Assembly (NCBI GenBank): GCA_043808095.1
Contig: JAZDFF010000001.1
Location: 94,230-158,229, forward strand
From: Candidatus Omnitrophota bacterium
Lineage (GTDB): Bacteria; Omnitrophota; Gorgyraeia; JAZDFF01
DNA length: 64,000 nucleotides
Reading direction: 5' to 3'
This document shows positions 11,546-59,140 of this stretch, in pieces. Each line of letters opens with the position of its first letter. Position 1 is the stretch's first letter. Position numbers and translations under genes: made by a program. The notes beneath the pieces are model-generated. The model saw only the letters and a program-made list of their open reading frames with translations, searched no databases and was not told the DNA's origin.

Positions 11546-11887
11546 ATGGCCAAAACGATTAAATTAAAATTTAATAAAGACAGGCTTATCCCGGTGATTA
11601 TCCAGGATTACAAGACCAAAGAGGTATTAATGCTTGCCTATATGAATAGAGAGTCGCTTAAAAGGACCTTGCGGCTTGGCAAGACCTGTTTCTGGTCTCG
11701 TTCCAGGAAGAAATACTGGGTAAAAGGAGAGACCTCCGGACATTTCCAATTTGTTAAAGGTATTTCCTATGACTGCGACCAGGATGCCTTATTGATTAAG
11801 GTAAGACAGGTAGGCGTAGCCTGTCATACAGGTAATAGGTCATGCTTTTATAGGAAATTAAAACTAAGTAACCAGCCCCGAATGTAG
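11546..11887 (+). CDS. hisI: Phosphoribosyl-AMP cyclohydrolase HisI
   Basis: 113 aa; GLIPVIIQD-like N-terminus, CDxDALL and C-terminal Cys cluster. Confidence 0.8.
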
Positions 11888-11889
11888 AA

Positions 11890-12103
11890 ACCCAAGAAGT
11901 TATACATCGGGATCCCGAAGCGATACTTCGGAGAATATCTGCATTCGGGAAAACCAGAGTACAGAAACCAGAAAAAATAAAATCTGGTTACTGTCCCGAA
12001 TGTTGTTACTATGTTAGTTATTCTTCGGGATCCCGAAGCGATACCATAGTAGTTACTACATTCGGGATAAACTGTTAACTGGTTTCTCCCGAGCGAAGCG
12101 AGG
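11890..12103. repeat. Palindromic repeat cluster ending in shared CCGAGCGAAGCGAGG module before the trpE ATG
   Basis: CGGGATCCCGAAGCGATACTTCGG palindromes; ACCAGAGTACAGAAACCAG and CCGAGCGAAGCGAGG shared with 39369-39446; also related to 51410-51470. Confidence 0.8.
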
Positions 12104-22749: not shown

Positions 22750-23060
22750 AATCTTCCGCCACAATTCTTTTGCACCACAAATATTGGCGCATCCGCCAAT
22801 TATTATGGCGGAGGCGGACCCGCCAATCTTTGTGGCGGGAACGCTAATGTTCGCGAATCTTTAAAATTGCCTAATTTTATGGTTAAGTTTTCGGGCTAAG
22901 GTTAAGAAACCAGTATGGAAAATTAGGTTAGGGTTAAGTATTTCTTTACCTAACCTTAACCTCTAAACCATACTGGCATCATAACCCTAACCATAACCTG
23001 AGATTAGCGAGAATTCGCGTTTCCTGCCTGCCGTGAGGCAGGGATTAGCGGAAATTCGCG
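22750..23060. repeat. Palindromic repeat cluster (CCGCCACAA...TTGTGGCGG family; GGTTAAG module; CCTGCC palindrome)
   Basis: GGCGGACCCGCCAATCTTTGTGGCGGG is identical at about 22813 and 59093; related copy at 30001-30060. Confidence 0.8.
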
Positions 23061-50622: not shown

Positions 50623-50982
50623 GGGCAGGTACCCAAGCGGTCAAAGGGGACAGACTGTTTAAAAGCAGCGCCCCGACGAAAGTCGTGGTGGAAAAGTAGG
50701 TGAATTCAGGGAAACCCTCTCGTAACTACGAAAGGTAATCCTGAGCCAATCCTCGCACAAAGCTGGCAGGCAGAAGGCCTGCTTGCTGAAGCTTTAGCGA
50801 AGGCAGGTGCAGAGACTAAGCGCCTACCACCTAAAACTGGATGAAGCCCAGTTTTATCCCAAGCGAAGTTAAGGGATAACTTCTCTGGTTAAGGTGATGA
50901 GATAGTCCAAGCCTTGAGGAAACTCAAGGGATACTTGAAATCTGTTGCACACGCTTCAGAGGTTCGAATCCTCTCCTGCCCA
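50623..50982 (+). tRNA. tRNA-Tyr(GTA) interrupted by a group I intron in the anticodon loop
   Basis: Exons GGGCAGGTACCCAAGCGGTCAAAGGGGACAGACTGT + AAATCTGTTGCACACGCTTCAGAGGTTCGAATCCTCTCCTGCCCA form a class-II Tyr cloverleaf (acceptor GGGCAGG/CCTGCCC, anticodon stem ACAGA/TCTGT, loop CTGT|AAA). Confidence 0.75.
50659..50937 (+). ncRNA. Group I intron (IC3-like, no ORF) within tRNA-Tyr
   Basis: 5' splice site after U with GCAG guide-sequence partner; terminal G; core elements AATCCTGAGCCAA, GGTGCAGAGACTAAGCG and GAGATAGTCC resemble cyanobacterial tRNA-Leu intron P3/P7 elements as recalled from memory. Confidence 0.7.
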
Positions 50983-51358: not shown

Positions 51359-51397
51359 GCGGGCATAGCACAGTGGTAGTGCAGTGGCCTTCTCCCG
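51359..51397 (+). other. tRNA-like 5' half (acceptor and D-arm only)
   Basis: GCGGGCATAGCACAGTGGTAGTGCAGTGGCCTTCTCC resembles the 5' half of a Gly-type tRNA but no T-arm or 3' acceptor follows; a family C palindrome follows. Confidence 0.35.
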
Positions 51398-51475
51398 AAT
51401 GAAGAAACTTCTTTAGAATAGCATCGGGATCCCGAAGTATAACTTCTTGGGTTACTACATTCGGGGCAAGCTATA
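51398..51475. repeat. Palindromic repeat, family C (CGGGATCCCGAAG / CATTCGGG)
   Basis: Reverse-complement match to 11895-11940. Confidence 0.7.
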
Positions 51476-51486
51476 ATAATAATTTT

Positions 51487-51557
51487 GCGGGAGTAGTTCA
51501 GTGGTAGAACAATAGCCTTCCAAGCTATATACGCGGGTTCAATTCCCGTCTCCCGCT
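51487..51557 (+). tRNA. tRNA-Gly(TCC)
   Basis: GCGGGAG/CTCCCGC acceptor, anticodon loop CTTCCAA, T-loop TTCAATT; CCA follows. Confidence 0.85.
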
Positions 51558-51559
51558 CC

Positions 51560-51890
51560 AATAGTTTACACGGGTTTCCGCCACCCGTCATCTTTGATGG
51601 CGAGTGGCGAGATCTCGCCGAAGCTAAAAAAATGGAGTCCACGGCTTTACCCTCTTCGACTCGCGTCGAGCGAGGCGAGCAGCCGTGGTACCTGAAAAAC
51701 CCGCCTACGCTTCGCTTCGGCGAGGTCCGCTCGCCTCGCGGCGAAGCCGCGGGCCTTCAATACGTAATGGCGACATCTCGCCGTAGCGCTAATTGCACGC
51801 ATTCATCCCCAGGTTCACACCTGGGGTTTTCCCGCCAAAGGCGAGGCTCGCCAAAGGCGGCTGCGCGAAGGCGGATAAATATCTAGCTTC
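51560..51890 (+). repeat. GC-rich island with four GGCGAG-N(2-5)-CTCGCC hairpin palindromes
   Basis: Palindromes at 51607-51620 (GGCGAGATCTCGCC), 51719-51735, 51779-51792, 51840-51852; composition clearly more GC-rich than the surroundings; ORFs here are Arg-rich low-complexity and judged spurious. Confidence 0.55.
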
Positions 51891-51891
51891 G

Positions 51892-51920
51892 GCGGGCAAT
51901 TCCCGTTGCCCGCTTTTTTT
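51892..51920 (+). terminator. Intrinsic terminator candidate
   Basis: GCGGGCAA / TTGCCCGC 8-bp stem followed by a run of 7 T. Confidence 0.6.
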
Positions 51921-58959: not shown

Positions 58960-59140
58960 TCGAAAACTCGTCAACTCGTTGAACTCGAAATTCGTCATTC
59001 CATTAGTCATTCGAAATTAGGAATTTTCGATTCTAGATTAGCGCAGATATTTATCTGTGCTCATCTTGTAGCATTTTCCGCCATAATGCTTTGGCGGACC
59101 CGCCAATCTTTGTGGCGGGCATCTGTGCTAATCTGCGACT
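58960..59140. repeat. Palindromic repeat cluster (families F, B, A)
   Basis: GGCGGACCCGCCAATCTTTGTGGCGGG identical to 22813-22839; CGTCATTCC...CATTAGTCATTCG family F. Confidence 0.8.

What the first reader, a model, noticed from the sequence alone, without database searches (positions are those of the whole stretch)
51560..51920. GC-rich 360-bp non-coding island with four GGCGAG/CTCGCC hairpins, ending in a strong terminator
Immediately after tRNA-Gly the sequence becomes abruptly GC-rich and carries four short palindromes with arms GGCGA(G)/(C)TCGCC at 51607, 51719, 51779 and 51840, then a stem-loop plus T-run terminator at 51892-51920. ORFs predicted here are Arg-rich and low-complexity and look spurious. 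It could be a structured ncRNA co-transcribed with the tRNA, a REP/BIME-like cluster, or a remnant of foreign GC-rich DNA.
Basis: seen in the sequence. Interest (0 to 1): 0.5.

Follow-up and report, generated by a model that had tools for sequence, protein, structure and literature searches.

The report
Nested hairpin repeats in tRNA-Gly remnant
The GC-rich island after tRNA-Gly is a 357-base insertion made of nested hairpin-forming repeat elements lodged in a leftover tRNA fragment; it belongs to an undescribed repeat family and is not a gene or a catalogued RNA.

Summary
Window 51558-51914 is the most GC-rich stretch of the window (60% against 41%). It carries the four GGCGA(G)/(C)TCGCC palindromes, folds far better than shuffles (z = -7) and ends in a stem plus T7 terminator.

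It is an insertion. Three related Omnitrophota lineages run tRNA-Gly, T-run, M28 peptidase gene without it. Its outer layer is a second, partial copy of a tRNA-Gly 3' end, split inside its T loop. Inside that sits a hairpin element, and inside that a 246-nt copy of a 160-nt multi-hairpin family.

I found 13 copies of this family in low-GC contigs, three of them labelled Omnitrophota. They lie at unrelated loci and in both orientations, with two copies 2 kb apart in one contig. Their helices show compensatory changes. A shorter relative (52-107 nt) shares an identical 20-mer and occurs in Acidobacteriota and other phyla, sometimes inside displaced tRNA-Asn fragments.

No Rfam family, conserved ORF, phage or plasmid match, integrase or transposase was found.

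Best reading (0.6): non-autonomous REP/MITE-like palindromic elements nested at a tRNA-linked hotspot and read through from tRNA-Gly. The mobilising enzyme, and whether the hairpins act as RNA or DNA, remain unknown.

The parts
51359..51392 (+). Displaced 5' fragment (nt 1-35) of a second tRNA-Gly type ('Gly#1', GCGGGCA...).
   Evidence: It is 76% identical to the 5' part of the intact tRNA-Gly (D1). It is 100% identical over 34 nt to the intact tRNA-Gly#1 of relative L001.
51393..51466 (+). 'X' element: a 74-nt double-hairpin repeat (TCCCGAATG..CGGGATCCCG..CATTCGGGG) inserted in the anticodon loop of that fragment. It is followed by CAAGCTATA (tRNA nt 36-44) at 51467-51475.
   Evidence: Two more copies lie at window 11875-11953 and 11992-12070. 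Further copies sit in tRNA-Gly fragments and tRNA-Tyr promoter regions of L001 and L003.
51487..51560 (+). Intact tRNA-Gly(TCC). CCA is encoded only because the insertion starts with CCA.
   Evidence: The gene is identical to the L004 gene up to the discriminator base.
51558..51914 (+). The island as a whole: a 357-nt insertion relative to related genomes.
   Evidence: Alignment with L004 and L003. L004 reads ..CTCCCGCT|TTTTTTGTTTGATATG(M28). The window has 357 nt between those two points.
51567..51576 (+). TACACGGGTT: variable loop, T-stem 5' strand and first two T-loop bases of a tRNA-Gly#1-type 3' fragment.
   Evidence: Direct repeat D10 with 51530-51539. It matches L001 tRNA-Gly#1 (CCTACACGGGTTCGAG) exactly.
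51577..51630 (+). Left part of the outer hairpin element: TCCGCC, hairpin 51582-51610, then the conserved hairpin GGCGAGATCTCGCC followed by GAAGCTA.
   Evidence: It has the same order of parts as the 52-107-nt short elements found in other phyla.
51631..51876 (+). A 246-nt copy of the 160-nt multi-hairpin family, running from (A)ATGGAG.. to ..GCGAAGGCGGAT.
   Evidence: nhmmer 114.6 bits, E = 5.8e-34 against the family profile. Collinear homologs are shown. The family structure is supported.
51651..51680 (+). Extra 30-nt hairpin module inside the loop of family helix H1.
   Evidence: It is absent from the compact copies L078, L063, L052 and L084.
51731..51753 (+). Extra 23-nt hairpin module interrupting the 5' strand of family helix H3.
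   Evidence: Comparison with the consensus GAGGTCCGCCTTCA.
51831..51860 (+). A 30-nt REP-like hairpin, CCCGCCAAAGGCGAGGCTCGCCAAAGGCGG.
   Evidence: The same module is present in L036. Similar CCGCCAA..TTGGCGG hairpin doublets lie at window 22755-22840 and 59077-59119.
51877..51896 (+). Right part of the outer hairpin element. TAGCTTCGGCG pairs perfectly with CGCCGAAGCTA at 51616-51626.
   Evidence: Inverted repeat I9: 11 nt, 100% complementary. The pairing also appears in the MFE fold.
51897..51913 (+). CAATTCCCGTTGCCCGC: the rest of the T loop, the T-stem 3' strand and the acceptor 3' strand of the tRNA-Gly#1-type fragment. It is a direct repeat of 51540-51556.
   Evidence: Repeat D2. CCCGTTGCCCGCT is the exact 3' end of L001 tRNA-Gly#1.
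51891..51920 (+). Intrinsic terminator: a stem built from the element's end plus the tRNA remnant, then the native T7 run.
   Evidence: Terminator scan. The T-run and the downstream flank are shared with L004.

Best explanation
The island is not a gene. It is a lineage-specific 357-nt insertion in three layers.

1. A displaced partial copy of a tRNA-Gly 3' end lies just downstream of the intact tRNA-Gly. This is the kind of direct repeat left by recombination or integration at a tRNA gene.
2. A GC-rich palindromic element sits in the T loop of that remnant.
3. A 246-nt copy of a dispersed 160-nt multi-hairpin repeat family sits in a hairpin loop of the second element. This copy itself carries three small extra hairpin modules.

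Shown: the insertion, its boundaries, the nesting, the existence and dispersal of the family, conservation of its hairpins through compensatory changes, and the absence of coding potential or of any catalogued RNA family.

Inferred: the elements are non-autonomous mobile or repeat DNA of the REP/REPIN/MITE kind. They spread without target duplication, often into loops of existing hairpins. Copies in dispensable tRNA remnants survive because they do no harm there.

Inferred consequence at this locus: transcription from tRNA-Gly reads through the island and stops at the stem plus T7. That stem is made from the element's right end and the tRNA remnant. The island would then be a highly structured 3' trailer that must be trimmed from the tRNA precursor.

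The mobilising enzyme is unknown.
For: Insertion: L004 and L003 (M28 peptidase about 80% identical) have tRNA-Gly directly followed by the T-run and the M28 start. L001 and L002 lack the island as well.

tRNA-derived bounding repeat: (D2, D10).

Family: 13 copies share the order TGGAGCC-H1-H2-GGTCCGCCTTCA-GGCGACATCTCGCC-CGCATTCATCC-H6-GCGAAGGCGGAT. For the model structure, 90.5% of cells pair against 34-47% when partners are slid. Eleven pairs change on both sides, against 5.3 in shuffles (0 of 500 shuffles reach this).

Repeat-like behaviour:
- Copies lie at unrelated loci: after purH in L013; antisense between a nuclease gene and a transporter gene in L022 and L036; upstream of ptsH in L039; antisense in L068; convergent with the next gene in L063.
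- L039 has two copies 2 kb apart, one of them degenerate.
- Copies carry different inserted hairpin modules.
- G.U (25) and A.C (19) counts in the helices show no strand bias.

Short relatives: 52-107 nt with termini T|CCGCC(K)YCGC ... GCGRAGGCGG|A. An empty tRNA-Asn site, GGGTTG^TAGGTTCG in L046, compares with filled sites in L061 and L100 that show no target duplication.

Other palindromic repeat families occur in the same window. L001 has SHE-like mini-hairpins in the same spacer.

No Rfam family. No Pfam hit for the ORF. Terminator confirmed.
Against: - Only one copy of the 160-nt family lies in the 64-kb window, so high copy number in this genome is not shown.
- No transposase, RAYT or integrase was seen among the ORFs tested within about 10 kb, and no autonomous partner was found.
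- The most conserved part is the central hairpin and some unpaired stretches (CGCATTCATCC), not only the termini. The 20-mer is identical across phyla. Both features look more like a constrained functional RNA or protein-binding site than like a typical MITE.
- Only a subset of copies sit in hairpin loops: flank complementarity averages 2.9 of 8 against 2 expected.
- The island could not be confirmed in an independent assembly.
Confidence: 0.6

Rival explanations
1. The 160-nt unit is a functional structured small RNA, or an RNA-level module such as a transcript stabiliser, processing signal or protein sponge. It would be expressed here as the 3' trailer of the tRNA-Gly transcript, and the hairpins would be kept for RNA function.
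For: The fold is very stable (z = -7 to -8). Helices H2 and H6 show compensatory changes, and conserved unpaired blocks are present. In the window the unit has the same orientation as tRNA-Gly and the flanking genes and is followed by a terminator. A closing helix whose sequence differs completely between the window (CGCCGAAGCTA/TAGCTTCGGCG) and L013 (AAAGGGGAC/GTCCCCTTT) could be read as covariation.
Against: There is no Rfam match, even at E <= 10. Copies lie in both orientations relative to neighbouring genes, and synteny is not conserved. The - strand folds equally well. Helices show no excess of G.U over A.C. One copy is degenerate. The element is present or absent among close relatives. 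No promoter is detected for it.
Confidence: 0.2
2. The island is the scar, or a cargo-less unit, of a tRNA-targeting integrative system. The partial tRNA plus the palindromic element would together form the attachment module, perhaps used as a folded DNA site in the manner of an integron attC. The element would then not be an independent insertion.
For: The island is bounded by direct repeats of the tRNA 3' end that share CCCGCT at both junctions. In Acidobacteriota contigs the short element sits at one fixed position inside displaced tRNA-Asn 3' fragments. These fragments recur in arrays: 199-nt tandem units in L030, and about 400-nt repeated modules separated by 0.8-2.2 kb of cargo (RelE/HTH toxin-antitoxin, SDR, hydrolase) in L045. 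Six of 51 non-coding hits lie within 200 nt of a strict T-arm motif, rising to about 11 if degenerate tRNA ends seen by eye are counted. The background rate is 0.034 motifs per kb.
Against: No integrase was found within about 10 kb in the window or in the L045 cargo. About 80% of copies have no tRNA context. The 160-nt family copies in other Omnitrophota contigs are not flanked by tRNA fragments. The distal repeat has the acceptor strand of a different tRNA-Gly type, which a simple integration into this gene does not predict.
Confidence: 0.15
3. The island is an assembly artefact: a chimeric join at a repeated tRNA-like sequence in a metagenome-assembled genome.
For: The source is a MAG. The island is bounded by a short repeat and made of repeat elements. 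No independent contig carrying it could be retrieved.
Against: Both flanks continue collinearly with relatives, and the native T-run and M28 start follow directly. A chimera would not normally return to the same locus after 357 nt. The nested architecture is internally coherent, with an 11-bp perfect helix closing around the inner element.
Confidence: 0.03

Closest known systems
REP / BIME / REPIN elements (repetitive extragenic palindromes, mobilised by RAYT transposases)
   Same: They are extragenic, GC-rich imperfect palindromes that occur singly, as doublets and in mosaic clusters. They produce no target duplication, form stable hairpins in transcripts and often lie between a gene and its terminator. 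The 52-107-nt short element is a long hairpin with conserved inverted ends, like a REPIN.
   Different: No 5' GTAG or CGTC tag is present. The centre is at least as conserved as the ends. An identical 20-mer is shared across phyla, whereas REPs are usually species-specific. No RAYT gene was seen. High copy number in this genome is not shown.
Bacterial MITEs that insert into RNA genes or other repeats (e.g. Rickettsia palindromic elements, Correia/NEMIS elements)
   Same: They are 50-400 nt, non-coding, with inverted termini. They are dispersed, present or absent between relatives, can be nested, and can sit inside RNA genes and be co-transcribed.
   Different: No target-site duplication appears at the one site where empty and filled forms can be compared. 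No related transposase-bearing IS was found.
IS200/IS605-derived palindrome-associated elements (PATEs)
   Same: Similar sub-terminal hairpins lie near both ends (H1 and H6 share the loop YTTNACA). There is no target duplication, and the single-strand hairpin structure is conserved through compensatory changes.
   Different: No conserved tetra- or pentanucleotide lies at the left junction. Inverted termini are present in the 3' domain. No Y1 transposase or TnpB was identified.
att-site scars and tandem accretion at tRNA genes (integrative islands, cis-mobilisable elements flanked by attL/attR without an integrase)
   Same: An intact tRNA gene is followed by inserted DNA and then by a direct repeat of the tRNA 3' end next to the native flank.
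   Different: The inserted DNA is only 357 nt and consists of palindromic repeats. The distal repeat is split in its T loop and derives from another tRNA-Gly type. No integrase is nearby.

Membership tests
Rfam RNA families (any of 4227) | Covariance-model score at or above the family's gathering threshold | tested here: not met
   The island gives no hit at gathering score. Only chance-level hits appear at E <= 10. No hit falls on homologous copies in 23 loci.
REP/BIME/REPIN | Short imperfect palindromes in extragenic DNA, often clustered | tested here: met
   Palindromes of 13-30 nt and long hairpin units lie in intergenic DNA. Other hairpin doublets occur elsewhere in the window.
REP/BIME/REPIN | Conserved GTAG (or CGTC) tetranucleotide at the 5' end of the palindrome | tested here: not met
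   The conserved hairpin is followed, not preceded, by G(A/T)AGC. About half of the copies have GAAG.
REP/BIME/REPIN | Many copies per genome | tested here: inconclusive
   The 64-kb window holds one copy of the 160-nt family, and a 6.3-kb contig holds two. The full genome was not available.
REP/BIME/REPIN | A cognate RAYT (Y1 HUH transposase) gene in the genome | not tested
   Only about 20 ORFs around the island were scanned against Pfam. None is a transposase. The rest of the genome was not examined.
MITE | Terminal inverted repeats | tested here: met
   The short element and the 3' domain of the 160-nt family have termini T|CCGCC(K)YCGC ... GCGRAGGCGG|A. The corresponding helix H3 is conserved.
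MITE | Target-site duplication flanking the element | tested here: not met
   The empty site GGGTTG^TAGGTTCG (L046) becomes GGGTTG[TCCGCC..GGCGGA]TAGGTTCG in L061 and L100 with no duplication. None is seen at CGGGTT^CAATTCCCG in the window.
MITE | A related autonomous IS with the same ends | tested here: inconclusive
   None was found in the loci held. The rve-family IS next to the L046 array has unrelated inverted repeats. Public collections could not be rescanned for this.
IS200/IS605-derived PATE | Conserved target tetra- or pentanucleotide immediately 5' of the left end | tested here: not met
   Left flanks of 12 copies differ: AAAAA, TCAAA, CGCAC, CCATG, GGGC, AAGTA and others.
tRNA-targeted integrative element (attL/attR) | Direct repeat of the tRNA 3' end bounding the inserted DNA, with the native flank after the distal repeat | tested here: met
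   51540-51556 against 51897-51913, 15 of 17 identical (the extended 29-nt repeat D2 is 76%). The native T-run and M28 start follow.
tRNA-targeted integrative element (attL/attR) | An integrase (tyrosine or serine recombinase) gene within the element or adjacent to it | tested here: not met
   The element is 357 nt with no conserved ORF. Neighbouring ORFs are DUF2007, M28 peptidase, GH1, a ThyA-like protein, patatin, AbiEii and others.
Intrinsic (Rho-independent) terminator | GC-rich stem-loop directly followed by a T-run | tested here: met
   A 10-pair stem at 51891-51914 (6 G-C pairs, loop of 4) is followed by TTTTTTT.

The most novel reading that the evidence does not exclude
The conserved palindromic unit (TCCGCC..GGCGAGATCTCGCC..GGCGGA) may be a folded-DNA recombination site, analogous to an integron attC. 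It would belong to a tRNA-anchored cassette or mini-element system that operates across phyla, including Omnitrophota, Acidobacteriota and Vicinamibacterales. Each unit would consist of a tRNA 3' fragment with the palindrome embedded in or next to its T arm. The window's island would be a cargo-less unit at tRNA-Gly. The Acidobacteriota arrays at tRNA-Asn, with toxin-antitoxin and small enzyme cargo, would be loaded units.
Probability: 0.1. Interest if true: 0.8.

Novelty: new variant of a known kind. Interest (0 to 1): 0.42.

Why it matters
The finding explains an odd GC-rich island without invoking a new gene.

It also defines a previously uncatalogued family of structured repeat elements in Omnitrophota, a phylum with almost no experimental genetics. 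Annotators would otherwise mis-call these elements as Arg-rich ORFs or as candidate ncRNAs.

Three features are unusual for REP/MITE-like DNA:
- a 20-nt core identical across distant phyla;
- repeated lodging inside loops of displaced tRNA fragments;
- onion-like nesting.

If these features reflect a shared recombination or targeting mechanism, they point to an undescribed way of building small insertions and cassette arrays at tRNA genes.

At this locus the practical consequence is a roughly 360-nt, very stable 3' trailer on the tRNA-Gly precursor, ending at a terminator recycled from a tRNA remnant.

Tried and rejected
- Known RNAs. RNase P RNA, tmRNA, SRP RNA, 6S RNA, group I/II intron fragments, IscB/TnpB guide RNAs, riboswitches and ribozymes were all considered. 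Rfam gives nothing at gathering score or at E <= 10, and ARAGORN finds no tmRNA here.
- Protein coding. The 84-aa ORF has no Pfam hit. Its reading frame is broken in homologs (L013 stops after 29 codons, L022 after 14; reading). I ran no further search on it.
- Phage or plasmid origin. There is no similarity beyond chance in the phage or plasmid collections. No copy of the family's motifs occurs in viral contigs. The single viral 20-mer hit has no extended similarity.
- A second copy in the window. There is none.
- A giant split tRNA-Gly. The idea was that the 5' fragment at 51359, the 3' fragment at 51567-51576 plus 51897-51913, and everything between them form one tRNA-shaped transcript. The acceptor strands do match (I5), but the equivalent fragments in L001 do not pair, so I dropped it.
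- Many 20-mer hits in high-GC genomes turned out to be coincidences inside coding sequence, for example sigma-54 activator AAA+ genes in L017, L019 and L029. They were set aside.
- The IS next to the L046 array as the autonomous partner. Its inverted repeats are unrelated.
- Independent assembly of the island. Four exact-protein look-ups found nothing useful.
- Literature searches for a described family found nothing relevant.

Full report
**1. The observation**

The window is about 41% GC, and nearly all genes lie on the + strand. ARAGORN and Rfam place tRNA-Gly(TCC) at 51487-51560.

Directly after it the composition jumps. 150-nt windows from 51551 to 51776 hold 0.56-0.65 GC, the highest values in the 64 kb (mean 0.41, sd 0.059).

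The four palindromes are real:
- GGCGAGATCTCGCC, 51606-51619
- GGCGAGGTCCGCTCGCC, 51719-51735
- GGCGACATCTCGCC, 51769-51782
- GGCGAGGCTCGCC, 51840-51852

Five of the window's 19 GGCGAG and four of its 17 CTCGCC fall in these 360 nt, against about 0.1 expected for each. A 10-pair stem at 51891-51914 followed by T7 is picked up by the terminator scan. The stretch folds at -173.5 kcal/mol, z = -7.07 on the + strand and z = -5.57 on the - strand.

**2. What it is not**

- No Rfam family reaches its gathering score in the island. With permissive filters only chance-level hits appear.
- The 84-aa ORF 51632-51886 has no Pfam match. Its frame is not kept in homologous copies.
- Nothing similar exists in the phage or plasmid collections.

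**3. It is an insertion**

The downstream gene encodes an M28 peptidase. Its closest database relatives are from Candidatus Omnitrophota, and the 100% match is an NCBI MAG contig of 159,674 nt.

In two lineages with about 80% identical M28 (L004, L003), tRNA-Gly is followed directly by a T-run and the M28 start codon. Aligned to L004, the window is identical through the tRNA and again from the T-run onward. Exactly 357 nt (51558-51914) lie in between. L001 and L002 also lack the island.

**4. Anatomy** (coordinates verified)

- The insertion begins with CCAATAGTT.
- TACACGGGTT (51567-51576) follows. At the far end lies CAATTCCCGTTGCCCGC (51897-51913). Together these are the 3' third of a tRNA-Gly, split inside the T loop.
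- They match a second tRNA-Gly type that is intact in L001 (CCTACACGGGTT...CCCGTTGCCCGCT). The 5' fragment of this type (51359-51392) sits upstream of the intact gene in the window.
- Between the two T-arm halves lies an outer hairpin element. Its left part is 51577-51630 and its right part 51877-51896. The arms CGCCGAAGCTA and TAGCTTCGGCG pair perfectly (I9).
- That helix encloses a 246-nt element (51631-51876).
- The terminator stem is built from the right end of the outer element plus the tRNA remnant. The T7 is the native run seen in L004.

**5. The inner element belongs to a family**

I scanned one genome per species for the twice-occurring 20-mer TGGCGASATCTCGCCGWAGC. This gave 29 loci. 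A metagenome scan gave 68 more.

About 40% of the unique hits (34 of 85) lie in high-GC genomes and look like coincidences inside coding sequence. The low-GC contigs, however, hold collinear homologs. Three of these are labelled Omnitrophota: the window's MAG, L013, and L022 (Ca. Velamenicoccus archaeovorus LiM).

Compact copies are 155-160 nt and share this order:
- TGGAGCC
- H1 (CCACGGC-TTTACA-GCCGTGG)
- AAAAACC
- H2
- GAGGTCCGCCTTCA
- H4 (GGCGA-CATC-TCGCC)
- GWAGC
- CGCATTCATCC
- H6 (a hairpin with the same kind of loop as H1)
- GCGAAGGCGGAT

A profile finds 13 copies, E from 6e-49 to 9e-12.

On an alignment of eight copies, the model structure pairs 90.5% of cells, against 34-47% for slid controls. 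Eleven pairs change on both sides, against 5.3 in shuffles; none of 500 shuffles reaches this.

The window copy differs from the compact form by three extra hairpin modules, at 51651-51680, 51731-51753 and 51831-51860.

**6. It behaves as a repeat, not as a gene**

- Locations are unrelated. The copy lies after purH in L013, and antisense between a nuclease gene and a transporter gene in L022 and L036. In L039 it lies between rsmI and ptsH. In L068 it is antisense between two genes, and in L063 it converges on the next gene.
- L039 holds a second, partly degenerate copy 2 kb away.
- Both strands fold equally well.
- The helices hold 25 G.U against 19 A.C cells, so there is no sign of selection on one RNA strand.
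- The window contains other small palindromic repeat families. The 74-nt 'X' element has three copies, one of them in the anticodon loop of the upstream tRNA-Gly fragment. CCGCCAA..TTGGCGG hairpin doublets lie at 22.8 kb and 59.1 kb.
- L001 has mini-hairpins with the same termini (ATCCGCCTTCGC...GCTTCGGCGGAT) in the equivalent spacer.

**7. A shorter relative and the tRNA link**

The 3' domain of the family (H3-H4-H5/H6) has the same plan as a 52-107-nt element found in Acidobacteriota, Vicinamibacterales, Firestonebacteria and another Omnitrophota MAG. Its termini are T|CCGCC(K)YCGC ... GCGRAGGCGG|A, around the same central hairpin.

In several Acidobacteriota contigs this element sits at one fixed position inside a displaced 3' fragment of tRNA-Asn. 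The filled form is GGGTTG[element]TAGGTTCGAGTCCTACCTGAGGAGCCA (L061, L100). The intact gene in L046 shows the empty site, and there is no target duplication.

Such fragments recur in arrays. L030 has 199-nt tandem units. L045 has modules of about 400 nt separated by toxin-antitoxin, SDR and hydrolase genes.

Six of 51 non-coding hits lie within 200 nt of a strict T-arm motif, against a background of 0.034 per kb. About five more show a degenerate tRNA end by eye. Most copies have no tRNA context.

**8. Interpretation**

The best-supported reading is that the island is a nest of non-autonomous palindromic repeat elements of the REP/REPIN/MITE kind, lodged in a dispensable tRNA-Gly remnant next to the live gene.

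Shown: the insertion and its boundaries, the nesting, the family, and the maintenance of its hairpins.

Inferred: mobility without target duplication, a liking for hairpin loops, and read-through from the tRNA to the recycled terminator.

Against a plain MITE or REP:
- No transposase, RAYT or integrase was found nearby.
- Only one copy lies in 64 kb.
- The central 20-mer is identical across phyla.
- Some unpaired blocks are conserved.

These points keep two rivals alive. One is a functional structured RNA (0.2). The other is an attachment module of a tRNA-targeting integrative or cassette system (0.15). An assembly chimera is unlikely, because the sequence returns to the same locus, but I could not check it against an independent assembly.

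**9. Comparison and verdict**

The family is not in Rfam 15, and four literature searches did not surface it. It fails the GTAG tag of REPs, the target duplication of MITEs and the fixed target nucleotides of IS200/IS605 derivatives, while sharing their general behaviour.

I file it as a new variant of a known kind. It is of moderate interest in itself. The interest would be higher if the cross-phylum core and the tRNA-fragment association turn out to reflect a common recombination mechanism.

Noticed in passing
window 50623-50982 (intron 50659-50937): tRNA-Tyr(GTA) is interrupted by a 279-nt group I intron (Rfam RF00028, 86.6 bits), inserted in the anticodon loop after CTGT. ARAGORN misses the gene. 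The relatives L001 and L003 have the same tRNA-Tyr without an intron.
   Followed up: partly
window 51393-51466, 11875-11953, 11992-12070; L001 5236-5330, 5475-5545, 5653-5724; L003 160-250: A 74-79-nt double-hairpin repeat ('X': TCCCGAATG..CGGGATCCCG..CATTCGGGR). It is inserted between anticodon positions 35 and 36 of tRNA-Gly fragments, and into a promoter-like sequence upstream of tRNA-Tyr at CTTG^CAAG. A tandem pair lies in an intergenic spacer.
   Followed up: partly
window 51359-51486: A 5' fragment of a second tRNA-Gly type, plus X, plus CAAGCTATA and an AT-rich spacer containing TATAAT, lies directly upstream of the intact tRNA-Gly. L001 has the same arrangement before its own tRNA-Gly. 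This piece may supply the promoter.
   Followed up: no
window 22755-22840 and 59077-59119: Doublets of about 20-nt GC-rich hairpins (TCCGCCA..TGGCGGA). The 21-mer CCCGCCAATCTTTGTGGCGGG is identical at both loci, so this is a further REP-like family.
   Followed up: partly
L045 1438-7610; L030 2850-5650 (- strand); L046 1275-1757: Acidobacteriota contigs carry arrays of displaced tRNA-Asn 3' fragments, each holding the short palindromic element. L030 has 199-nt tandem units. L045 has modules of about 400 nt separated by RelE/HTH, SDR and alpha/beta-hydrolase genes. No integrase lies in the cargo.
   Followed up: partly
L022 2697-3133; L036 11073-11494: In Ca. Velamenicoccus archaeovorus and a close relative, the family copy lies about 1.6-1.7 kb from the tmRNA gene, in the same syntenic spacer in both. 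This is probably coincidental.
   Followed up: no
L003 1-120 and 540-650: A stretch of about 110 nt (CTCCTTAAGAGTTTCTTTTAACTGCTAAGGAAGGGATGACAGCGACCGAAGCGAA..) is repeated within a 2.2-kb contig, once before tRNA-Tyr and once before tRNA-Gly. This is another small repeat in a related lineage.
   Followed up: no
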